Source: Escherichia coli (GTDB lineage: Bacteria; Pseudomonadota; Gammaproteobacteria; Enterobacterales; Enterobacteriaceae). From it: a DNA stretch of 64,000 nt. The stretch lies in assembly GCF_003334385.1 (NCBI RefSeq), contig NZ_QOWN01000017.1. One strand, written 5' to 3'. A program made the translations under genes and the position numbers. The notes under the pieces were generated by a model that ran no database searches, was not told where the DNA came from, and saw nothing but the letters and a program-made list of their open reading frames with translations. Shown one piece after another: positions 8,158-64,000 of this stretch (positions within the stretch are counted from its first letter, which is position 1; every line of letters begins with the position of its first letter).

Positions 8158-8314
8158 TAAAAGGTGTGTTACAGGGCAGAAATTTCCTGTCCTGTAACAT
8201 TTGATGAGCGCAAAGAGAATGACCGGTTTGTGAATGTAATTTTATGAATTTAAATGGTTTTATCTTTCAGTAGAAACTTCAAACGTTCATCAAACACTCA
8301 GGTTATTTCCTCAA

Positions 8315-8341
8315 GGGCAGATTATTTTCTGCCCTTTTTTA
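8315..8341 (+). terminator. Rho-independent terminator downstream of fruA
   Basis: GGGCAGA-loop-TCTGCCC followed by TTTTTT; an imperfect 13-bp inverted repeat at 8167..8199 precedes it. Confidence 0.6.
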
Positions 8342-57628: not shown

Positions 57629-58443
57629 TACTCACCTCCTTTGATGCGAATGCCTGCGGCGCGGATTGCAGCGATGACTTCAGAAACTTTGTATGCCATT
57701 ACCGTTTGGTAATCATCGTGAAAATCTGTTCGATGAAGCATGCTGCTACGTTCCGGGAGCGATATTTCCCGAGCATCCAGTTCCTTAACGCGTTCCTCCA
57801 GTTCGTAGACCCTGCATTGTTCTCTATCATCAATCAGATATAACCCAAGACATTCGCTTTCTACCCAACCGCCAAAATCATGATCGTAACGCTCACATGA
57901 AAACTCACCGTCACCGTCCTTTGTTGGAATGGTGTAACTATCTAATGTGCCACCATATGTCGGCACATTTCCCAATGTTGGATGCTCAATCCACATGAAA
58001 AATGCACGTCCGGTTATTGGGCAAATATCTGGCCGCCATTGGTTACGAACAGCCTTGGTTTCGGATAATTCTTCAGCGTGTTGTTTTACTTCCTCAAGCT
58101 CAACTCTCAGCTTCCCTACCGTTAGCGCAATATCCTCGTTCTCCTGATCGCGGCTTTTGATGTATTGCAGGTTTCTTTCCCGTTCATCCAGCAGTGCCAG
58201 CACGGTAGCCGGGTTAGCCTCTGCTATGAATTCAGCGTTTGCATAAGCCTGAGCATCTGTTTCAACCAGGCAGTTAACGTGACATTCTGCAATTACGCCA
58301 CCGGGTTCTCCTTTCCATTTTTGACAAACAAAAACTCCTGTTAAATTGCCGTGTTGGTTAACAGATGTATGCCCTACGATGTAGCTTCCTTTAGTTGCTT
58401 TCTCTGCCTTTTCACGCAGTGCCTGATAGTCAATCTTGCTCAC
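57628..58443 (-). CDS. Ea22-like phage protein (271 aa)
   Basis: GTG start with SD AAGGAGG; contains LLDERERNLQYIKSRDQENEDIALTVGKLRVELEE and C-terminal GIRIKGGE, which I recall as characteristic of lambda Ea22. Confidence 0.65.
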   Translation of the reverse strand: MSKIDYQALREKAEKATKGSYIVGHTSVNQHGNLTGVFVCQKWKGEPGGVIAECHVNCLVETDAQAYANAEFIAEANPATVLALLDERERNLQYIKSRDQENEDIALTVGKLRVELEEVKQHAEELSETKAVRNQWRPDICPITGRAFFMWIEHPTLGNVPTYGGTLDSYTIPTKDGDGEFSCERYDHDFGGWVESECLGLYLIDDREQCRVYELEERVKELDAREISLPERSSMLHRTDFHDDYQTVMAYKVSEVIAAIRAAGIRIKGGE

Positions 58444-58744
58444 TGGCAGCCTCCTTTGCCGGGATTTCTAACTTTTGAGTGGTTGTATCAAATTCAAACA
58501 ACTTAACCACGTCATCAAACAGGACATAATCACCATCAGGATTTTCAGTCATATCTGCGCCACAATCCTGACCGCACGAGTCGCAACCATCCATATCAAG
58601 CTCGTATCGCTTCAGGTTTGCGATATTTGATAAATTCAGCGCCAGTACAGCCAGGTCATAAACCTCTTCGGCAGTGACATCGCTGTTCAGTCCCATTTCA
58701 TGGCGATATATGATTTTTTCTACTCGTTGTTTTGTGATCGTCAT
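58430..58744 (-). CDS. Hypothetical phage protein (about 104 aa)
   Basis: Track ORF 58430..58768; ATG at 58744 (MTITKQR...); alternative start at 58696 possible; acidic, Cys-containing. Confidence 0.45.
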   Translation of the reverse strand: MTITKQRVEKIIYRHEMGLNSDVTAEEVYDLAVLALNLSNIANLKRYELDMDGCDSCGQDCGADMTENPDGDYVLFDDVVKLFEFDTTTQKLEIPAKEAASEQD

Positions 58745-59015
58745 TTTTCTCTTCACTCCGATATACAAGGATTACTACACCCCCTCTGCTGATTGCGCGA
58801 GCTGGATCCCCTGGTTCCATGCCGTCAATTCCGAAGGCTTCGGAAAACGCATTCATTGCCTTCTGGCGTTCATCCTGCTTACGGCGTTTATTCCATTTTT
58901 TCAGGAACAACAGCGACAGCCACCGTCCGCTGCAGAACACGATGTAAAAATAACCAAGGAGCGCCAGGCCGACATTCAGGGCCGTTTCTATGGTTAGTTG
59001 TGAGTCAGTTGCCAT
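58698..59015 (-). CDS. Small membrane protein (105 aa; one N-terminal TM helix, then basic stretch)
   Basis: Hydrophobic segment LNVGLALLGYFYIVFCSGRWLSLLFL followed by KKWNKRRKQDERQK; 3' end overlaps next gene so true stop/start uncertain. Confidence 0.4.
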   Translation of the reverse strand: MATDSQLTIETALNVGLALLGYFYIVFCSGRWLSLLFLKKWNKRRKQDERQKAMNAFSEAFGIDGMEPGDPARAISRGGVVILVYRSEEKNDDHKTTSRKNHISP

Positions 59016-59253
59016 TTCTTACCTGTTTAAGTAACTGGTTGAACATAACACTTAGGGGATTGCTGTATCCAAACGGCAGATTGTTTACGCAGTACAGAAT
59101 CATTTTGTTTTTTTCTCCAGTTCGTACTATTAACCCATTCCACAATAACCGTGATAATTCATTACTGATAGAAGTTGCGCTTCTTCCAAGTGCGAGGGAT
59201 ATATCTTCTCTACTGCAATCTGGATTTTCCTGGATATACTCGATAACGGTCAT
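59005..59253 (-). CDS. Putative winged-helix DNA-binding protein (82 aa)
   Basis: Track ORF 59005..59295; ATG at 59253 (MTVIEYIQENPDCSREDISLALGRSATSISNELSRLLWNGLIVRTG...) resembles a wHTH. Confidence 0.45.
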   Translation of the reverse strand: MTVIEYIQENPDCSREDISLALGRSATSISNELSRLLWNGLIVRTGEKNKMILYCVNNLPFGYSNPLSVMFNQLLKQVRNGN

Positions 59254-59263
59254 GTGGTCCCTT

Positions 59264-59845
59264 TTACTTAATATCTGTTTCGGATTGCATGCCATGAGTA
59301 TTCATTTCGTTAATAATTTCATCCAGAAGGATTTCAAGCCCTTCTCGACCCATATCTGAAAGAATGAAACCTTTATCAGGGGAAGTAGTGAGCATTTTCT
59401 GATAAAGAAACAGCGCTCTTCCCATTCCTTCAGTTTCGCCGTATTTTTGAATTAAATTCCATTCAATATACTGTTGTAAGGCAAATCGAATGGGGCCGGG
59501 ATATATCGTCATAAACCCATACATCCCGTTATATACCACGGCGTGTTCAGTTGTTCCGTGTTCATTCAGGATATCAATTGTGCCGTTCTTGTCTTCTTCT
59601 TCGTTGATGAATGTCGTCACATACAACCATCGCCACTGAGCAACCTTCATCTCAACCGGAAGTTTACCCAGTAATCCTGCTTCGTCGGCTTGCGCCAGAC
59701 ACTGAAGGATACGTAAACCTCGCACATTAGGAGTATCGAATTCTCCGGCATCCAGACGACGTATGGCGTCGTGATAATCAATCGTCATACTGCCAGTTCG
59801 TATACCATTGGCTGTTGCTTCAGCCTGGAATTCATCGTATTGCAT
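59264..59845 (-). CDS. Hypothetical phage protein (193 aa)
   Basis: SD GAGGA; no recognisable motifs. Confidence 0.55.
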   Translation of the reverse strand: MQYDEFQAEATANGIRTGSMTIDYHDAIRRLDAGEFDTPNVRGLRILQCLAQADEAGLLGKLPVEMKVAQWRWLYVTTFINEEEDKNGTIDILNEHGTTEHAVVYNGMYGFMTIYPGPIRFALQQYIEWNLIQKYGETEGMGRALFLYQKMLTTSPDKGFILSDMGREGLEILLDEIINEMNTHGMQSETDIK

Positions 59846-59850
59846 GATAT

Positions 59851-60039
59851 TTATTCCTCATCTTCATCTTCATCTGCTGGTGCAATAACGTCATATCCTG
59901 CCTTTTCTGCAATAAACAGGAATGTTGAAAGAGTTCCTACAAGTTCATCGTCATGAACATGGCGAATGAATATTACTTTCCCGTTTTTGATGGTCAGCAA
60001 TATTCTGGTTTGTTCGTGTTCTGCTGTTTTCTGATGCAT
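59851..60039 (-). CDS. Small phage protein with acidic tail (62 aa; ...APADEDEDEE)
   Basis: SD GGGAGA; stop 6 nt before next start. Confidence 0.5.
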   Translation of the reverse strand: MHQKTAEHEQTRILLTIKNGKVIFIRHVHDDELVGTLSTFLFIAEKAGYDVIAPADEDEDEE

Positions 60040-60233
60040 TATTATCTCCCGTATGCTTTACGCAGAAATAAGCAGGCAATATGCATGTAATTTTCACCGT
60101 ATTGTGCAATAAGGCAGGCGGTCTTGTGTGATGCCATATTCTTTATAAAAGTCACAATAAAGCCTCCTGTGGATTAAGGTTGTAACAATCCCCGGCGATA
60201 AAACCGCAATAAACGTTCAGGGCATATTTGTTG

Positions 60234-60599
60234 TTATTGCGCTAATTCTTTTTCGGCAGCAGCTTTTGTATACTCACATGCAAAACTCAGAATTTCGCTG
60301 CCGAGTGTTTTCGTTTCGTGATTACTGGACATATGTAATACCTGTGTTGCATGCAATAAATGATAAACATTTACCGCAAATGAATCAGGCTCCAGACAAA
60401 TGCCTTCGTAATTATCTTGCTGTGAGGTTGTTTCTGTCATTGCTCCTGAAGTGCATGCGAGCCTGTTTTTGACAATTCTCTTTTCTCTAATCACTATATC
60501 GGCAACATCTATTGCCTTTACAACCTCCGGGAGAAGTTCCGGGTTTGTATAATCAAAGTCATCAACATGGAGAACAGTTATGTTTTCGAACTTTTTCAT
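60234..60599 (-). CDS. Hypothetical phage protein (121 aa); C-terminal half paralogous to the N-terminal domain of the 60728..61276 product
   Basis: SD GAGGAAG; alignment LEPDSFAVNVYHLL...KTLGSEILSFACEYTKAAA versus LELDSFALNIANLL...KELGIEVMEFIHEYALSAA. Confidence 0.55.
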   Translation of the reverse strand: MKKFENITVLHVDDFDYTNPELLPEVVKAIDVADIVIREKRIVKNRLACTSGAMTETTSQQDNYEGICLEPDSFAVNVYHLLHATQVLHMSSNHETKTLGSEILSFACEYTKAAAEKELAQ

Positions 60600-60727
60600 G
60601 GCTTCCTCAGCTGACTTATATGTTCTGCTATATAGCGAGTCTCAGAAGTGTTTTCATATTGAGACTGTTTCCACAATGATTGATAAAAATGTTCGCATGT
60701 ACCTTGAAGGGCGAAGCGGCGATTATG

Positions 60728-61276
60728 TCACCATTGGTATTGGTTCTTCCGCAGAAGAGCTTCGCGAGATAAGGGGCAAACTTGTTGAGATGCGTCATGG
60801 TGTTGCTGCTCCTCACTTTTTGGTTGCTCCGGAGGAGTAACCTCACCAGTTAACAGGCACATCGGATCGCAGCCAAGAATATTTGCCAGTGGGATAAGCA
60901 TACTGATAGTTGGTTCATACTCTCCGCTCTCCCACTGGATGATAATTTCTTCATCGAGATCGAGCAGCCTGGCGAGTTCGGCGGTTGTTAAGCCGCAGGC
61001 TTCGCGTTGGGTGCGAAGGTTAACCAGCCAGCTTTCAGGGAAGGATTGTTTTTGCTGTGCAGGAGAAGCAGCAGATAGAGCATATTCATGGATAAATTCC
61101 ATTACCTCAATGCCCAGTTCCTTTGAGCGAGCACAATCCAGAAGATGGAATGTGCGTACAGCACTTAGCAAATTTGCAATATTTAATGCAAAGGAATCAA
61201 GTTCTAAGCCCTTAAGCGTAACACAGCCGCAGTTGATAAAATTAGTTGTTTCTGGAGTTGCTTTTAGTGTCTTCAT
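60728..61276 (-). CDS. Two-domain protein: N-terminal unknown domain plus C-terminal XRE-type HTH (182 aa)
   Basis: ATG at 61276 (track ORF extends to 61306); HTH segment GLTTAELARLLDLDEEIIIQWESGEYEPT; first gene downstream of a sigma70-like promoter next to cI. Confidence 0.55.
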   Translation of the reverse strand: MKTLKATPETTNFINCGCVTLKGLELDSFALNIANLLSAVRTFHLLDCARSKELGIEVMEFIHEYALSAASPAQQKQSFPESWLVNLRTQREACGLTTAELARLLDLDEEIIIQWESGEYEPTISMLIPLANILGCDPMCLLTGEVTPPEQPKSEEQQHHDASQQVCPLSREALLRKNQYQW

Positions 61277-61329
61277 ATATCCGCCAACAATTTTAAATTG
61301 AATCAAATCAAGTTATAATTGATGGTGCG

Positions 61330-61358
61330 ATATTATGTTTTGGGAAACAGGCTGTCAA
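61330..61358 (-). promoter_or_regulatory. Sigma70-type promoter (pL-like) reading leftward, away from cI
   Basis: On minus strand: TTGACA (61358..61353), 17-bp spacer, TAATAT (61335..61330); about 45 nt upstream of the 61276 start. Confidence 0.6.
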
Positions 61359-61388
61359 GAAAAAATTGATATCGTATATTTCAGGCAG

Positions 61389-61410
61389 AAAAAAAACGGG
61401 CAAAGCCCGT
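61389..61410 (-). terminator. Rho-independent terminator just downstream of cI
   Basis: Minus strand: ACGGGC-TTT-GCCCGT followed by T8 (plus-strand A8 at 61389..61396). Confidence 0.75.
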
Positions 61411-61422
61411 TAAAATCAAAGA

Positions 61423-62112
61423 CTAACCAAATCTGTTTATGTTGAATGGTACTGATGAGATCACTTTAGACTGGATATAAAGCAGAGCTAACCCCTCTTT
61501 TTCGATGCTCCATGGTTGATAATTGGGGTTATCAGATAACACCATGATTTTGCTTCCAATTTTTTGAAGCCTTTTCACGTAGCATTCTCCATCAAAACAA
61601 AATGCATAAATACCATCGCCATCAAAATAAGTTACTGTCTTATCAAGAAAAAGAAGGTCGCCAGGTGAGATTGTGGGAGCCATACTGTCTCCTCTGGCGT
61701 TACCTATTTCTATATTTTTGAATGCCCGATTTCCAACAAGACGTCGGGCATATTCAGGATCAAGTTCTATTGAGCGCACTACATCTATCAAGTCACCACG
61801 GACATGAGTTCCATCACCGCAACTAAACTCAACATCAAGGACATTAAATACGACGCTATCTGTTCTTGTCTGGTGTTTCTCTTGCGAGGAAAAGGTTGGT
61901 GAGGAGTCTTCACCTAAGAACCAGGATTGTGGATAACCGCTAATCTCTGATAAATGCGCGAGCTTATCACTCCGTGGAAATGTTTTTCCTGTTGTCCAGT
62001 ACTGCACTGATTGCGCACTCACACCTAACTTGCGGGCCAGTTGAGCCTGAGTCCATCCTTTTGCTTTCAGCATCGCGGCTATTCGATTTTCCGTGTTTTT
62101 GACGTTCTTCAT
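61423..62112 (-). CDS. cI: CI-type prophage repressor (N-terminal HTH plus C-terminal S24 LexA-like autopeptidase), 229 aa
   Basis: ATG at 62112 (MKNVKNTENRIAAMLKAKGWTQAQLARKLGVSAQSVQYW); S24 motifs GDSMAPT (Ser) and YVKRL (Lys); divergent from Cro-like gene. Confidence 0.85.
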   Translation of the reverse strand: MKNVKNTENRIAAMLKAKGWTQAQLARKLGVSAQSVQYWTTGKTFPRSDKLAHLSEISGYPQSWFLGEDSSPTFSSQEKHQTRTDSVVFNVLDVEFSCGDGTHVRGDLIDVVRSIELDPEYARRLVGNRAFKNIEIGNARGDSMAPTISPGDLLFLDKTVTYFDGDGIYAFCFDGECYVKRLQKIGSKIMVLSDNPNYQPWSIEKEGLALLYIQSKVISSVPFNINRFG

Positions 62113-62245
62113 GACCAAATCCTGTGGGTTTCTTTACAAGGATAAATCTTTACTTGATTTTAGTGTATTCGATCCTTTTGTAACTTGCATGTTAATTTAA
62201 ACTTGATGTATTCTTGATTTATAAAGTTAATATTGGTGTTTTGTT

Positions 62246-62536
62246 ATGGAAGGAAATGATTACGACAAACTTCGTGCATTAATTGCGCAAAATGCCATAG
62301 CGCGAAATCTTGGTGTGACGCCGCAAGCGGTGAATCAGTGGTTTTCAAAAAGCACAATTCCTGCTCGTTTCGTTTTACGAGTATGTGAAGTAGTTGCATG
62401 GAAGGTTACGCCTCATGGCTTAAGGCCAGATCTTTATCCTCACCCTGAAGATGGAATTCCTAACTTGTTACGCAAAAGCCTAAATCCAAGTTCACCACAC
62501 AGAGCGGATGGAATACACGCAGGAGATAAACAATGA
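62246..62536 (+). CDS. cro: Cro-like HTH regulator (YdaS/DUF1019-like), 96 aa
   Basis: HTH NLGVTPQAVNQW; HGLRPDLYP motif; divergent to cI across a 133-bp AT-rich intergenic region. Confidence 0.7.
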   Translation: MEGNDYDKLRALIAQNAIARNLGVTPQAVNQWFSKSTIPARFVLRVCEVVAWKVTPHGLRPDLYPHPEDGIPNLLRKSLNPSSPHRADGIHAGDKQ

Positions 62537-63240
62537 ACACCGCAATTTTTAACGGCAAAGCATCCATGACCAGCGTTGAGATCGCAGAGCTGGTGGGAAG
62601 CCGACCAGATAGTGTTAAGAGAACTATTGAAACACTGGCTAAAAAGGGAATCATCCAATTTCCACAGACTGTGGAAATTGAGAATAAACAATCACTTGGG
62701 CCTCGCCGATTTTCTAGCGCGTATGTATTCGAAGGTGAACGAGGTAAGCGCGACAGCATCATTGTCGTCGCACAGCTCTGTCCTGAATTCACAGCTCGCC
62801 TGGTAGATCGCTGGCGCGAACTGGAAGAACAGATCCGTAAGCCAATGAGCGAAATCGAAATGGTTGCCGCGATGGCTCTTGAAGCCGTTCGCCAACAGAA
62901 ACGGATCACTCAGGTGGAAGAAAAAGTCAGCCACGTTGCTGAAACAGTCGAGCAAATTAAAAAGGGCACTATTCGTGAGGGCTATGCCGGATATCGCCAA
63001 CTGAAAGCAAAAACCGGTTTGTCAGATGATAAATGCCGCAATCTGGTGAACGCCTATCAAATTCCTACAGACACACATGAGTTCATGACGCCGGACGGAT
63101 TGTTGTCACGTCGCGCAATTGTTGCTGTGGAACCGTTTATGGCTGCTTTTTATCGGGTTATGGAGGAAGCAGAACCGCGAGGGACTCGCTGGTATCACCC
63201 GAAAATGGGGTTATTTCAGGTTATTGGTTGGCAGCGATGA
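62533..63240 (+). CDS. Putative phage regulatory / antirepressor-like protein (235 aa)
   Basis: Start overlaps cro stop (ATGA); N-terminus MTSVEIAELVGSRPDSVKRTIETLAKKG resembles Rha/Bro-N-type DNA-binding N-domains. Confidence 0.5.
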   Translation: MNTAIFNGKASMTSVEIAELVGSRPDSVKRTIETLAKKGIIQFPQTVEIENKQSLGPRRFSSAYVFEGERGKRDSIIVVAQLCPEFTARLVDRWRELEEQIRKPMSEIEMVAAMALEAVRQQKRITQVEEKVSHVAETVEQIKKGTIREGYAGYRQLKAKTGLSDDKCRNLVNAYQIPTDTHEFMTPDGLLSRRAIVAVEPFMAAFYRVMEEAEPRGTRWYHPKMGLFQVIGWQR

Positions 63241-63648
63241 AAAAAAGCCGGGAGTAACCCGGCTCACTCAACATCAATAACGGGGAGCTGTTTCGCATAA
63301 AACGGCTCCGAAACATCCAAGAACAGTTCTAAAGATATCAGCAGCTATATGATCATTTCAAGACCAAATATTGATTCTGCAATTCCGGGACGTTACACTG
63401 CTCAGGCACCTTATAAAGCGGGTGCCGGGGGTCGCAGCCCGGAATTGTCAACGGCGATATATGACGCGCCAGCGTCTTTTTTATCGTCCGCGCTCACGCA
63501 CGCCAGAATTATGGTGGGCTGGGCAGGGGAGCCGAAAGGCTCGCCGGTCTCCGTTGACGCCGGTACTGCGAACCCTGTTCAGTCTGCCACCAGTGAGTTT
63601 CGCAGCTCCGGTGGTGGAAGTTTTCCACAGTCAACGGAGGCTGCCATC

Positions 63649-64000
63649 ATGGCTACGATCCCAACCCTCACTCAACCTGAAATTGCCATCGTTGATGGTC
63701 AGGCTGTTACTTCATCCCTGGCTGTTGCCAACTTCTTCTCCAAACGTCATGACGATGTACTGAAAAAGATCCGCACGCTTGAATGCTCTGCATCATTCAC
63801 TTCCCGCAATTTTTCGGTGAGTGATTACACCGATTGCACAGGCCGCAAACTACCTTGCTATCAAATAACCCGCGACGGCTTTGCGTTTCTTGCTATGGGT
63901 TTCACGGGTAAACGTGCTGCCCAGTTCAAAGAGGCATACATCAATGCCTTTAACCAGATGGAGAAACAGCTTTCAAATCCCTCTGTACTGAGCGACGTTG
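63649..64000 (+). CDS. Rha-family phage regulatory protein, 5' portion (partial, runs off window)
   Basis: SD AACGGAGG; MATIPTLTQPEIAIVDGQAVTSSLAVANFFSKRHDDVLKKIRTL...RDGFAFLAMGFTGKRAAQFKEAYI matches the Rha-family pattern. Confidence 0.7.
   Translation, partial: MATIPTLTQPEIAIVDGQAVTSSLAVANFFSKRHDDVLKKIRTLECSASFTSRNFSVSDYTDCTGRKLPCYQITRDGFAFLAMGFTGKRAAQFKEAYINAFNQMEKQLSNPSVLSDV

What the first reader, a model, noticed from the sequence alone, without database searches (positions are those of the whole stretch)
63240..63648. Structured intergenic region between the two Rha-like genes, with a leftward-facing terminator at the 3' end of the upstream gene
Directly after the stop of the 62533..63240 gene there is a hairpin (AGCCGGG-AGTAA-CCCGGCT, 63246..63264) preceded by A6 on the plus strand, so it functions as a T-tailed terminator only for leftward transcription. 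This is the geometry of lambda OOP antisense RNA at the cII 3' end. A plus-strand terminator-like hairpin with T6 (63462..63481) and further GC dyads follow before the next start. No convincing leftward promoter was found, so an OOP-like sRNA is plausible but unproven.
Basis: inference. Interest (0 to 1): 0.35.

Follow-up and report, generated by a model that had tools for sequence, protein, structure and literature searches.

The report
IsrK–C4 antirepressor switch plus leftward RNA
The gap between the two Rha-like prophage genes mostly holds a well-known pair of small RNAs (IsrK and C4) that control translation of the next gene, and beside it sits a small leftward promoter-plus-terminator unit that may make a roughly 84-base RNA not yet described.

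Summary
The region consists of two separate units.

**Unit 1, 63368-63648, plus strand.** This is a known mobile RNA immunity cassette. It runs promoter, then IsrK sRNA (Rfam RF01394, 58.7 bits), then C4 antisense RNA (RF01695, 78.8 bits), then two target sites. One target covers the Shine-Dalgarno sequence of the downstream Rha-family gene.
The "further GC dyads" are C4.
- Across 53 distinct relatives, the two C4 loops, the two downstream targets and the two decoy sites in IsrK co-vary three ways. 97-100% of positions stay paired in four of the five interaction helices and 89% in the two-pair a2:a' extension, against 34-46% when the partners are shifted.
- At least five "a" types and nine "b" types recombine.
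- This is the P1/P7 c4, P4 seqA-CI and Gifsy-1 isrK-orf45-anrP type of system.

**Unit 2, 63241-63361, minus strand.** This is a 120-bp cassette made of an extended -10 promoter (TTGAAA-18-TGaTATCTT), a conserved 5' block, a variable hairpin and the terminator. It predicts an RNA of about 84 nt.
- The promoter and terminator survive in variants about 30% diverged.
- Expression is untested.
- It resembles lambda OOP in position but not in geometry, because it ends at the stop codon.

The main content is already known. The leftward RNA is a modest, unproven novelty.

The parts
63240..63246 (-). T7 run on the minus strand (A7 on plus). It is the U-tail of the leftward terminator, and its last base is the A of the upstream gene's TGA stop.
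   Evidence: The run is 6-8 A long in all spacer variants.
63246..63264 (-). Leftward intrinsic terminator hairpin (AGCCGGG / loop / CCCGGCT).
   Evidence: 8 pairs, 6 GC; one of three such sites in 64 kb, none in 60 shuffles. The stem is kept while the loop varies in variants V2 and V3. phiP27 has a different hairpin with a minus-strand T-rich tail at the same place. Two natural single-base variants keep pairing only on the minus strand, as G-U.
63284..63309 (.). Middle hairpin: GGAGCTGTTT / CGCATA / AAACGGCTCC. Its sequence is replaced in V2 and V3, but a hairpin is kept.
   Evidence: V2 has ACTTC/GAAGT and V3 has CTGC/GCAG, which is a compensatory difference. The strand is ambiguous: G-U evidence points to plus in V1 and to minus in V2.
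63312..63325 (-). Conserved block AACATCCAAGAACA. On the minus strand it reads UGUUCUUGGAUGUU and would be the 5' single-stranded end of the predicted leftward RNA.
   Evidence: Identical in V1 and V2, and 10 nt (ATCCAAGAAC) kept in the commonest V3 form; four V2/V3-type variants (v22, v27, v31 and loci L212-L216) each carry one substitution. The flanks differ. It is unpaired in the minus-strand folds of V1 and V2 and only weakly paired in V3.
63332..63361 (-). Candidate leftward promoter: -35 TTGAAA (63361-63356), 18-nt spacer with TG, -10 TATCTT (63337-63332). Predicted start is about 63324-63326.
   Evidence: Found independently in variant V2 as TTGAAA-18-TG-TATTTT. The key elements are conserved while about half of the spacer bases differ. 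Not tested experimentally.
63371..63399 (+). IsrK promoter: TTGATT, 17 nt, TACACT. The start is at G63406. It is divergent from the leftward promoter, with the two -35 hexamers 9 bp apart.
   Evidence: Read. The 5' edge of the widely shared module lies at about 63366-63368. Position 1 of the Rfam isrK model falls at 63406.
63406..63482 (+). IsrK sRNA, 77 nt: two 5' hairpins, decoy sites a1 (TCGCAG, 63432-63437) and b1 (GTCAACGG, 63447-63454), terminator 63463-63476 and T6.
   Evidence: RF01394, 58.7 bits against a gathering score of 50, E=3e-11; a1:a2 and b1:b2 are 100% paired in 53 sequences, with 4 of 6 and 7 of 8 pairs changed on both sides.
63507..63594 (+). C4 antisense RNA, 88 nt: 17-bp closing helix, GAAA hairpin, loop b2 (CTCCGTTGAC, 63549-63558) and single-stranded a2 (CTGCGAA, 63566-63572).
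   Evidence: RF01695, 78.8 bits against a gathering score of 45, E=6e-15; internal helices 99.9-100% paired, with 8 pairs changed on both sides.
63599..63605 (+). Target a' (TTCGCAG), complementary to C4 a2.
   Evidence: the five-pair a2:a' helix (helix 5) is 97.4% paired with 4 of 5 pairs changed on both sides; the other two pairs (helix 6) are 88.7% paired. Duplex energy is -10.5 kcal/mol.
63630..63640 (+). Target b' (GTCAACGGAG, plus a following G), complementary to C4 b2. It contains the Shine-Dalgarno GGAGG (63636-63640) of the downstream gene.
   Evidence: helix 4 is 99.4% paired, with 7 of 10 pairs changed on both sides. Duplex energy is -24.7 kcal/mol.
63511..63648 (+). Leader reading frame. 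AUG 63511 lies in the conserved UUAUGG at the 5' end of C4, and 46 codons run in frame into the downstream ATG. It is the positional equivalent of Gifsy-1 orf45.
   Evidence: The frame is open in 53 of 53 relatives, yet diversity is flat across codon positions. The Gifsy-1 orf45 AUG is at +107 (PMC4825925); here it is at +106.
63649..64000 (+). Start of the regulated gene, a Rha-family (Bro-network) regulator annotated as antirepressor in close relatives. It runs off the end of the window.
   Evidence: Phage_pRha, E=9e-31. (TIGR02681). ('phage antirepressor Ant' in Stx1 phages that are 99.4% identical here).
62533..63240 (+). Upstream Roi/Rha-like DNA-binding gene, whose 3' end carries the leftward cassette.
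   Evidence: HTH plus weak Phage_pRha; the cassette is found only behind this gene.

Best explanation
The 409-bp gap holds two independent cassettes, back to back.

**(A) 63368-63648, rightward: an IsrK-C4 RNA immunity switch on the downstream Rha-family (antirepressor-type) gene.**
- A sigma-70 promoter starts transcription at 63406.
- Most transcripts stop at the T6 hairpin and give the 77-nt IsrK RNA.
- Read-through transcripts carry C4, which in P1, P4, N15 and Gifsy-1 is cut out as a stable RNA of about 80 nt.
- The two exposed C4 segments pair with a' (63599-63605) and b' (63630-63640). Site b' includes the Shine-Dalgarno sequence, so pairing blocks translation of the gene, in cis or in trans.
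- IsrK carries near-copies of the two targets (a1 and b1). It therefore pairs with the same C4 segments. This either locks the read-through leader in an inactive fold or, as free sRNA, titrates C4 and releases translation, as shown in Gifsy-1.
- The a and b sequences define specificity (immunity) types.
- What is shown here: family membership, complementarity and three-way covariation. What is inferred by analogy: processing, direction of regulation and antirepressor activity.

**(B) 63241-63361, leftward: a small promoter-terminator cassette tied to the 3' end of the upstream Roi/Rha-like gene.**
- It predicts an RNA of about 84 nt (roughly 63324 to 63241) with a conserved 5' end (GUUCUUGGAU), a variable hairpin and a strong terminator.
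- Its function is unknown. The most likely roles are a trans-acting sRNA, or an antisense or interference element against rightward read-through.
- My probability that this RNA is actually made is about 0.45.
For: **For (A).**
- Rfam matches above gathering score for isrK and C4, adjacent and co-oriented.
- Across 53 distinct modules, the C4 helices and the b2:b' and a2:a' pairings are 99.0% paired, against 34-46% for slid controls. Pairs changed on both sides: 7 of 10 for b2:b' and 4 of 5 in the main a2:a' helix.
- The a1:a2 and b1:b2 pairings are 100% paired, with 4 of 6 and 7 of 8 pairs changed on both sides.
- At least five a-types and nine b-types occur in many combinations.
- The minimum-energy fold of the read-through RNA pairs b2 with the Shine-Dalgarno region.
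- The module from about 63368 onward occurs behind unrelated upstream genes in more than 200 phage records.
- Gifsy-1 experiments support the pairing. Compensatory mutations isrK G28A/G31A with orf45 C162U/C159U fall in what is here the a1:a2 pairing. The roughly 80-nt STnc1160 RNA is processed from read-through transcripts (PMC4825925).
- Barquist 2013 calls this 'the IsrK-C4 immunity system' and equates it with P4 seqA/CI (PMC3632133).

**For (B).**
- Terminator statistics.
- A promoter-like site in the window and, independently, in a variant about 30% diverged. Its -35, TG, T-A-T---T and 18-nt spacing are kept while about half of the spacer bases differ.
- A conserved 5' block.
- The hairpin is kept through different sequences.
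- There is no leftward gene for more than 3 kb to the right in relatives.
Against: **Against (A).**
- Nothing contradicts membership.
- Whether C4 is processed here, whether regulation is translational or by termination, and whether the Rha-family protein is an antirepressor are all untested.
- The reading frame across the module is open in 53 of 53 relatives, so ribosomes probably traverse it. The RNA-only picture is therefore incomplete.

**Against (B).**
- There is no expression data.
- Only three sequence variants exist, all linked to the same gene pair, so comparative power is small.
- The promoter is moderate (9 of 12 matches).
- phiP27 keeps a leftward terminator at this site without this promoter. 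The hairpin may therefore belong to the upstream gene rather than to an sRNA.
- G-U versus A-C evidence for the middle hairpin favours the plus strand in V1.
- No Rfam family matches the minus strand, and no target for the conserved 5' block was found in the window.
Confidence: 0.85

Rival explanations
1. The key feature would be an OOP-like antisense sRNA, transcribed leftward and ending at the 3' end of the upstream gene. It would down-regulate that gene by pairing with its mRNA followed by RNase III cleavage, as lambda OOP does to cII.
For: - A leftward terminator and a candidate promoter are present.
- The position matches: right of the gene that follows cro, and left of the replication genes.
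- The predicted size (about 84 nt) resembles lambda OOP (77 nt).
Against: - The predicted RNA ends at the stop codon and overlaps no coding sequence. The OOP terminator lies about 55 nt inside cII.
- There is no convincing sequence similarity to OOP.
- The cassette is absent from many phages that carry related upstream genes.
Confidence: 0.12
2. The stretch 63349-63648 would be ordinary protein-coding sequence: an N-terminal 'Ash' domain of the Rha-family protein, as PGAP and several phage annotations have it. The RNA matches would then be incidental.
For: - PGAP starts a CDS at the equivalent of 63349 in hundreds of E. coli genomes.
- Pfam Phage_ASH matches residues 16-111.
- The frame is open in 53 of 53 relatives, and the module lengths are 240, 243 or 246 nt, all multiples of 3.
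- In Gifsy-1 the leader orf45 is translated (PMC4825925).
Against: - Diversity is the same at all three codon positions (0.233, 0.227, 0.218), so there is no selection on the amino-acid sequence.
- Variation instead follows base pairing, with 97-100% pairing in four of the five interaction helices (89% in the two-pair a2:a' extension) and many double changes.
- There is no Shine-Dalgarno sequence before 63349, and the IsrK promoter and terminator lie inside the supposed ORF.
- A second frame is also open across the region in the window.
- Hershko-Shalev et al. report that the nucleotide sequence is conserved but the amino-acid sequence is not.
Confidence: 0.08
3. The two hairpins at 63246-63309 would act on the rightward (pR) transcript, as a 3'-end stabiliser or processing site for the upstream gene's mRNA, or as a nut/put-like antitermination signal. 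The T run on the other strand would be incidental.
For: - The plus strand folds at least as well as the minus strand (z = -5.5 against -3.0 in V1).
- Natural V1 variants keep the middle hairpin through G-U pairs on the plus strand only.
- A hairpin directly after this gene's stop codon is also present in phiP27, with a different sequence.
Against: - Two different hairpins at this site (V1-V3 and phiP27) both carry the T-rich tail on the minus strand and none on the plus strand.
- Two single-base variants in the terminator stems keep pairing only on the minus strand.
- No second, nutL-like copy exists in the leftward operon.
- No N-like gene is evident next to cI.
Confidence: 0.15
4. The leftward terminator would be only an insulator. 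It would stop stray antisense transcription from entering the upstream gene and the immunity region, and no dedicated small RNA would be made.
For: - phiP27 has a terminator at the same place without the nearby promoter.
- Morons and mosaic joints in lambdoid phages often carry their own terminators (general knowledge).
Against: - A promoter-like site with conserved -35, TG and -10 elements sits 70-85 bp upstream of the terminator in all three variants.
- A conserved block lies exactly at the predicted 5' end.
Confidence: 0.2

Closest known systems
Gifsy-1 (Salmonella) isrK-orf45-anrP locus, with the processed RNA STnc1160 (Hershko-Shalev et al. 2016, PMC4825925)
   Same: - The order of parts is the same: promoter, 77-nt IsrK with a Rho-independent terminator, read-through leader, antirepressor-like gene.
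- The leader AUG is at about +106/107.
- The middle of IsrK pairs with the leader, and the tested mutations fall in what is here the a1:a2 pairing.
- The leader is conserved in nucleotide sequence but not in amino-acid sequence.
- The Rfam isrK model is matched.
   Different: - Here the leader frame runs in frame into the gene's ATG, with no stop. In Gifsy-1 the orf45 stop overlaps the anrP start (AUGA).
- The paper treats the leader mainly as an ORF and only discusses STnc1160 as CI-like. Here the leader is an explicit C4 match with covarying a'/b' targets.
- The prophage backbone is different, and no antQ link has been examined.
Phage P1/P7 immI operon: c4 antisense RNA, icd, ant1/ant2 (Citron & Schuster 1990, 1992; Heinrich et al. 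1994; cited from reference lists and from general knowledge)
   Same: - C4-family RNA (RF01695) lies upstream of an antirepressor-type gene in the same transcript.
- Two exposed segments (a2, b2) pair with two downstream sites (a', b') at the ribosome binding site.
- Upstream copies of the sites exist (a1/b1, here inside IsrK).
- Specificity types are set by the a/b sequences, as in P1 versus P7 heteroimmunity.
   Different: - Here the target is the Shine-Dalgarno sequence of the Rha-family gene itself rather than that of a separate icd gene.
- The host element is a lambdoid prophage with a CI/Cro switch, not the P1 plasmid prophage.
- Processing by RNase P and Rho-dependent polarity are untested here.
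Satellite phage P4 immunity (seqA - CI RNA - seqC) and N15 CA RNA (Briani et al. 2001 and Ravin et al. 1999, as cited in PMC3632133; PMC10111431)
   Same: - IsrK and C4 are the structural homologues of seqA and CI RNA.
- The regulator RNA pairs with one site upstream and one site downstream.
- The RNA lies inside a region that annotators translate as an 'Ash' or Bro-network protein.
   Different: - In P4 the outcome is premature transcription termination of replication genes.
- Here the b' site covers a Shine-Dalgarno sequence, so translational control of an antirepressor-type gene is the more likely outcome.
Lambda OOP antisense RNA
   Same: - Leftward orientation.
- Length of about 80 nt.
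- Own promoter and a strong intrinsic terminator.
- Placed between the gene that follows cro and the replication genes.
   Different: - OOP overlaps about 55 nt of the cII coding sequence. The predicted RNA here stops at the stop codon.
- There is no convincing sequence similarity.
- Expression here is unproven.
P22 sar RNA (antisense regulator of ant)
   Same: It is a small RNA in an antirepressor control region of a temperate enterobacterial phage.
   Different: - sar is transcribed opposite to ant and overlaps its ribosome binding site.
- Here the regulator (C4) is co-oriented with its target.
- The leftward RNA candidate lies more than 300 nt upstream of the ribosome binding site.

Membership tests
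C4 antisense RNA (Rfam RF01695; P1 c4 / P4 CI type) | Match to the family covariance model above the curated gathering score, full length. | tested here: met
   78.8 bits against a gathering score of 45, E=5.7e-15, model positions 1-87 of 87, at 63507-63594 (+).
C4 antisense RNA (Rfam RF01695; P1 c4 / P4 CI type) | Secondary structure supported by compensatory changes. | tested here: met
   the three internal helices are 99.9-100% paired in 53 distinct sequences, and 8 pairs are changed on both sides.
C4 antisense RNA (Rfam RF01695; P1 c4 / P4 CI type) | Two exposed segments complementary to two sites downstream in the same transcript, at the ribosome binding site of the controlled ORF. | tested here: met
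   b2:b' is 99.4% paired with 7 of 10 pairs double-changed; the five-pair a2:a' helix is 97.4% paired with 4 of 5 double-changed, and its two-pair extension is 88.7% paired. Slid controls give 34-46%. Site b' contains GGAGG, 8 nt before the ATG.
C4 antisense RNA (Rfam RF01695; P1 c4 / P4 CI type) | Controls an antirepressor or lytic-function gene downstream. | tested here: inconclusive
   The downstream gene is Phage_pRha / TIGR02681 and is annotated 'antirepressor Ant' in near-identical phages. Its activity is not known, and the gene is cut by the end of the window.
C4 antisense RNA (Rfam RF01695; P1 c4 / P4 CI type) | Mature RNA released from a longer precursor by processing. | not testable with these tools
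   This needs a Northern blot or end mapping. Processing is reported for the Gifsy-1 homologue STnc1160 (PMC4825925).
IsrK (Rfam RF01394; P4 seqA type) | Match to the covariance model above the gathering score, including the 3' Rho-independent terminator. | tested here: met
   58.7 bits against a gathering score of 50, E=3.3e-11, model positions 1-77 of 77, at 63406-63482 (+). The terminator is listed.
IsrK (Rfam RF01394; P4 seqA type) | Carries sequences complementary to the exposed segments of the neighbouring C4/CI RNA. | tested here: met
   a1:a2 (6 pairs) and b1:b2 (8 pairs) are 100% paired in 53 sequences, with 4 and 7 pairs changed on both sides.
IsrK (Rfam RF01394; P4 seqA type) | Own promoter immediately upstream, with the transcript start at model position 1. 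| tested here: inconclusive
   TTGATT-17-TACACT places +1 at 63406 and is conserved in all relatives. It scores 8 of 12, below the scan threshold. No transcript data are available here.
IsrK (Rfam RF01394; P4 seqA type) | Hfq binding and activation of downstream translation in trans. | not testable with these tools
   Shown only for Gifsy-1 (PMC4825925).
Lambda OOP-type antisense RNA | Leftward promoter between the upstream gene and the replication genes. | tested here: inconclusive
   There is a candidate at 63361..63332, conserved in a diverged variant. No expression data are available.
Lambda OOP-type antisense RNA | Intrinsic terminator ending a transcript of about 80 nt. | tested here: met
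   The predicted length is about 84 nt.
Lambda OOP-type antisense RNA | Transcript overlaps the 3' coding part of the upstream gene (about 55 nt in lambda), which is what allows antisense control. | tested here: not met
   The terminator stem begins 6 nt after the stop codon, and the T run ends on the stop codon. In lambda the terminator lies inside cII.
Lambda OOP-type antisense RNA | Sequence relationship to OOP. | tested here: not met
   global alignment score of -2 against shuffles of -11.8 +/- 4.4 (maximum 4). The similarity is confined to the terminator and T run. Rfam holds no OOP model.
Pfam Phage_ASH (PF10554) protein domain | Match to the profile. | tested here: met
   E=1.2e-17, residues 16-111 of the frame starting at 63349, which is nt 63394-63681.
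Pfam Phage_ASH (PF10554) protein domain | Evolves as a protein, with purifying selection on the amino-acid sequence. | tested here: not met
   diversity is equal at codon positions 1, 2 and 3. Variation follows RNA pairing instead. The frame is nevertheless open in 53 of 53 relatives.

The most novel reading that the evidence does not exclude
The 120-bp cassette at 63241-63361 would encode a previously undescribed leftward sRNA of about 84 nt. It would be made from an extended -10 promoter placed back to back with the IsrK promoter. It would have a conserved single-stranded 5' end (GUUCUUGGAU), an exchangeable hairpin and a strong terminator. It could act in trans on host or phage mRNAs. Alternatively, through its divergent promoter and antisense overlap with rightward read-through, it could couple the CI/Cro early operon to the IsrK-C4 antirepressor switch.
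Probability: 0.4. Interest if true: 0.45.

Novelty: new member of a known kind. Interest (0 to 1): 0.3.

Why it matters
**For annotation.**
- Hundreds of E. coli and Stx-phage records translate this RNA switch as an "Ash family protein" or as an N-terminal extension of a Rha/Ant protein.
- Recognising it as IsrK plus C4 corrects the gene start to 63649, or to the 63511 leader AUG.
- It also explains a Pfam domain of "unknown function" that a survey of Stx-phage regulatory regions noted.

**For biology.**
- The cassette controls an antirepressor-type gene in prophages of pathogenic E. coli, including Shiga-toxin phages.
- Its a/b specificity types should decide which co-resident prophages can cross-silence or cross-induce each other.
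- The 53-variant data set gives a ready map of those types.

**For the leftward RNA.** If real, it would add one more small RNA to the early region of these phages. This is a modest addition.

Tried and rejected
1. **nut/put-like antitermination signal on the plus strand.** I searched 58000-64000 for a second (nutL-like) copy of the spacer hairpins or of CTCACTCAAC in the leftward operon. None was found beyond chance matches, and no N-like gene lies next to cI.
2. **Known prophage sRNAs.**
   - Rfam in E-value mode gave nothing on the minus strand of 63240-63400.
   - The EcOnc/AgvB/AsxR anti-sRNAs (PMC4104026) and the Pas sRNAs (bioRxiv 10.64898/2026.05.13.724894) lie in the late region near Q and the lysis genes, not here.
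3. **Homology to lambda OOP.** Rejected.
4. **More distant variants of the leftward cassette.**
   - I ran four pattern scans of viral contigs: the conserved 14-mer, the 3' end of the upstream gene, the terminator plus linker, and the junction of the two promoters.
   - These returned only three spacer variants, always between the same two genes.
   - One scan of species-representative genomes returned nothing. Most 14-mer hits were chance.
5. **An in-window target for the conserved 5' block.** Only one 1-mismatch match was found, at chance level.
6. **A 31-codon minus-strand ORF (63316-63221).** It runs through the terminator and is not conserved in V2, so it was rejected by inspection.
7. 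**The UUUCGCA in the V1 hairpin loop.** It equals target a', and its complement equals C4 a2. It is absent from V2 and V3, and V1 occurs with several a-types, so it is treated as chance.
8. **Original P1 papers.** PMC312442 and PMC196329 are not held in the library. Statements about P1 therefore rest on general knowledge and on citing papers.
Full report
**1. The observation**

- The upstream gene (62533-63240) ends in TGA, and that final A starts an A7 run at 63240-63246.
- The hairpin AGCCGGG-AGTAA-CCCGGCT occupies 63246-63264 and is followed by CACTCAAC, which has no T run.
- The hairpin can therefore act as an intrinsic terminator only for leftward transcription.

The consensus scan lists it on the minus strand with 8 pairs, 6 of them G-C, loop 5 and tail TTTTTCATCG.

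I then applied a stricter definition: a perfect 7-bp stem, at least 5 G/C, and at least 6 T in the next 7 bases. The whole 64-kb window has only three such sites:
- 8314-8335 on the plus strand;
- 61395-61411 on the minus strand, directly after the cI-like repressor gene;
- 63246-63264 on the minus strand.

Sixty locally shuffled copies of the window gave none.

The plus-strand hairpin with T6 is at 63463-63482. The GC-rich dyads after it are real as well.

**2. What fills most of the region**

A search against Rfam gives two full-length matches above the curated thresholds, adjacent and both on the plus strand:
- isrK (RF01394) at 63406-63482, 58.7 bits against a threshold of 50;
- C4 antisense RNA (RF01695) at 63507-63594, 78.8 bits against a threshold of 45.

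The "further GC dyads" are the 17-bp closing helix and the two hairpins of C4.

Upstream of IsrK lies TTGATT (63371-63376), a 17-nt spacer and TACACT (63394-63399). This places the transcript start at 63406, which is position 1 of the Rfam model.

Downstream of C4 there are two short sequences complementary to its two exposed segments.
- TTCGCAG (a', 63599-63605) pairs with CTGCGAA (a2, 63566-63572).
- GTCAACGGAG (b', 63630-63639) pairs with CTCCGTTGAC (b2, 63549-63558).
- Site b' runs into the Shine-Dalgarno GGAGG (63636-63640), 8 nt before the ATG at 63649.

IsrK itself carries near-copies of the two targets: TCGCAG (a1, 63432-63437) in the loop of its second hairpin, and GTCAACGG (b1, 63447-63454) in the linker.

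**3. Comparative test of the pairing model**

The stretch from about 63368 onward is a mobile module.
- It recurs in more than 200 phage records, including Stx1 and Stx2 phages, phiP27, SfV, mEp460 and a Salmonella phage.
- It sits behind unrelated upstream sequences.

From the loci fetched I collected 53 distinct versions and aligned them. I counted pairs on the structures I specified:

| Pairing | Cells paired | Pairs changed on both sides |
|---|---|---|
| C4 internal helices | 99.9-100% | 8 pairs |
| b2:b' | 99.4% | 7 of 10 |
| a2:a' (five-pair helix) | 97.4% | 4 of 5 |
| a2:a' (two-pair extension) | 88.7% | 0 of 2 |
| a1:a2 | 100% | 4 of 6 |
| b1:b2 | 100% | 7 of 8 |

Versions with every 3' partner slid by 1-3 columns give only 34-46% pairing.

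By eye there are at least five "a" types:
- CUGCGAA
- ACGCCAA
- GUUCCAA
- UUUCCAC
- GUGCAAA

There are at least nine "b" types. In every case the three copies (IsrK, C4 and the leader) change together, and a and b types occur in many combinations.

This three-way covariation is strong evidence that these RNAs pair as proposed. It also shows that the a/b sequences are specificity determinants.

The minimum-energy fold of the whole read-through RNA already pairs b2 with the Shine-Dalgarno region. The duplex energies are:
- b2:b', -24.7 kcal/mol;
- b2 with IsrK, -19.5 kcal/mol;
- a2:a', -10.5 kcal/mol;
- a2 with IsrK, -14.8 kcal/mol.

**4. How it most likely works**

The system has been described before.
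- Barquist et al. 2013 (PMC3632133) state that IsrK and C4 are the structural homologues of P4 seqA and CI RNA. They note that lambdoid prophages carry an "IsrK-C4 immunity system" and that P1, P7 and N15 use related systems.
- Mageeney et al. 2023 (PMC10111431) use the two Rfam models to find CI and seqA relatives. They note that in P4 the CI RNA lies inside a Bro-network gene.
- Hershko-Shalev et al. 2016 (PMC4825925) dissected the Gifsy-1 locus isrK-orf45-anrP.
  - Part of the transcripts read through the IsrK terminator.
  - The long RNA is translationally silent, because the middle of IsrK pairs with about 30 nt of "orf45".
  - Free IsrK supplied in trans opens it.
  - Translation from the orf45 AUG is needed for translation of the antirepressor-like AnrP.
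  - An RNA of about 80 nt (STnc1160) is processed from the leader.
  - Their compensatory mutations (IsrK G28A and G31A with C162U and C159U) fall in what is here the a1:a2 pairing.
  - Their orf45 AUG at +107 corresponds to AUG 63511, which is +106 here.

Putting this together, I propose the following sequence of events.
1. The promoter fires.
2. Most RNA ends as IsrK.
3. Read-through RNA carries C4.
4. C4 loops b2 and a2 occlude the Shine-Dalgarno region (b') and a', in cis or, after processing, in trans. The Rha-family gene is then not translated.
5. IsrK competes for the same loops through its decoy sites.

Family membership, complementarity and covariation are shown here. Processing, the sign of regulation and the activity of the protein are inferred by analogy.

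The downstream protein has a Phage_pRha domain. It is called "antirepressor Ant" in Stx1 phages that are 99.4% identical over this stretch. The gene runs off the end of the window.

**5. The leftward cassette**

The first 120 bp (63241-63361) do not belong to the mobile module. The homology shared with most phages starts at about 63366-63368.

This stretch occurs only behind the Roi/Rha-like gene 62533-63240 and always in front of IsrK. It exists in three sequence variants, V1 (the window), V2 and V3, which differ by about 30% in the spacer. It is present in 223 of 5426 complete E. coli genomes.

Read on the minus strand, all three variants have the same parts:
- TTGAAA, then an 18-nt spacer ending in TG, then TATCTT (V1) or TATTTT (V2 and V3);
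- 7-13 nt further on, the conserved GUUCUUGGAU (a few V2/V3-type variants carry one substitution);
- a hairpin whose sequence differs between variants (GGAGCCGUUU/AAACAGCUCC in V1, ACUUC/GAAGU in V2, CUGC/GCAG in V3);
- the conserved linker UGAG(U/C)GA;
- the GCCGGG/CCCGGC terminator with varying loops;
- six to eight U.

The scan tool finds the promoter-like site and the terminator independently in V1 and in V2.

The predicted RNA runs from about 63324 to 63241, about 84 nt. Its 5' block is largely unpaired in the minimum-energy folds: free in V1 and V2, weakly paired in V3. This is the usual layout of a trans-acting enterobacterial sRNA.

In relatives there is no leftward gene for more than 3 kb to the right. 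The terminator therefore has no other obvious transcript to end.

Several points argue against a real sRNA.
- There are no expression data.
- There are only three variants.
- The promoter is moderate.
- phiP27 has a different leftward terminator at the same spot without this promoter. This suggests the hairpin may belong to the upstream gene.
- Strand evidence is mixed. Single-base variants in the terminator stems keep pairing only on the minus strand. Variants in the V1 middle hairpin keep it only on the plus strand.

I put the probability that the RNA is made at about 0.45.

**6. Comparison with lambda OOP**

In lambda, the OOP promoter lies between cII and O, and the terminator lies inside cII. 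The RNA is therefore antisense to about 55 nt of coding sequence.

Here the position in the genome, the orientation and the size are similar. However, the RNA would stop at the stop codon, so the defining overlap is missing. There is also no convincing sequence similarity.

The cassette may work like an antisense or interference element against rightward read-through, but it is not an OOP homologue.

**7. Is the region coding?**

PGAP and several phage annotations start a CDS at the equivalent of ATG 63349. They call it "ash family protein" or extend the Rha/Ant protein over the RNA module.

Pfam Phage_ASH matches residues 16-111 of that frame. This corresponds to nt 63394-63681, which is exactly IsrK, C4 and the targets.

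Across the 53 variants:
- the frame is open in all of them;
- the module length is always a multiple of three (240, 243 or 246 nt);
- diversity is the same at the three codon positions (0.233, 0.227, 0.218).

A second frame is also open in the window.

The simplest reading is that ribosomes do traverse the leader from AUG 63511, as shown for orf45 in Gifsy-1. In-frame stops would then be avoided, while the amino-acid sequence is not under selection. On this reading the "Ash domain" is the conceptual translation of an RNA switch. Llarena et al. 2022 (PMC8951638) list this domain in Stx-phage Rha proteins as having no known function.

**8. Verdict**

- The main content is an already described kind of system, and this locus is a new member with a clear specificity type.
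- The leftward promoter-terminator cassette is the only possibly new element. It remains a prediction.

Noticed in passing
window 63394-63681 (also L008 1660-1936): Pfam Phage_ASH (PF10554, 'Ash protein family') matches the conceptual translation of exactly the IsrK-C4-target module. PGAP names the ORF starting at 63349 'ash family protein' or fuses it to the Rha protein. The domain appears to be a translated RNA switch rather than a protein under amino-acid selection.
   Followed up: yes
window 63406-63648 and 52 related modules (alignment A2): The frame of the downstream ATG is free of stop codons in 53 of 53 variants, and module lengths are 240, 243 or 246 nt. Nucleotide diversity is nevertheless flat over codon positions. 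This suggests that ribosome transit through the leader is selected, but its peptide sequence is not.
   Followed up: partly
window 63511-63651: The AUG inside the conserved UUAUGG at the 5' end of C4 opens 46 codons that run in frame into the Rha gene ATG. Translation from it would give an N-terminally extended protein. In Gifsy-1 the equivalent orf45 instead stops on the anrP start codon.
   Followed up: partly
L008 1672 and about 2290; L153 3376 and 4032; L172 9632 and 10288; L176 7577 and 8233: Some relatives carry two IsrK-C4-Rha cassettes in tandem. They are 656 bp apart in L153, L172 and L176 and about 620 bp apart in L008, and they have different a/b specificity types. The window ends at 64000, about where a second cassette would begin.
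   Followed up: partly
window 63366-63405: The conserved IsrK promoter stretch (ATATTGATTCTGCAATT.CGGGACGTTACACTG) acts as a mosaic joint. The same V1 spacer is found joined to modules of several different a/b types, and the 5-6 bases just before IsrK +1 are hypervariable.
   Followed up: yes
window 63291-63297: The loop of the V1 middle hairpin reads UUUCGCA on the plus strand, identical to target a'. On the minus strand it reads UGCGAAA, like C4 a2. It is absent from variants V2 and V3 and is not tied to a-type I modules, so it is probably chance.
   Followed up: partly
window 61395-61411 (minus): A strong intrinsic terminator lies directly after the cI-like repressor gene (61423-62118, minus). 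The weak Rfam hit to Burkholderia Bp1_781 at 61388-61473 is just this terminator.
   Followed up: no
window 58444-58458 (minus) versus 63632-63646: A 15-nt stretch is 93% complementary to the Shine-Dalgarno region of the Rha gene. On the minus strand it reads CAAAGGAGGCTGCCA, a near-copy of that ribosome binding site. It could be a second gene with a similar ribosome binding site, but it lacks the GTCAACGG part of b'.
   Followed up: no
window 63263-63277 and 63667-63681: CTCACTCAAC, next to the leftward terminator, recurs with 13 of 15 identity inside the first codons of the Rha gene. Its significance is unknown.
   Followed up: no
window 62533-62536: The cro-like ORF (62246-62536) and the Roi/Rha-like gene overlap by ATGA, which suggests translational coupling in the early rightward operon.
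   Followed up: no
window 8314-8335 (plus): This is the only other strong plus-strand intrinsic terminator signature in the 64-kb window. It was not examined.
   Followed up: no
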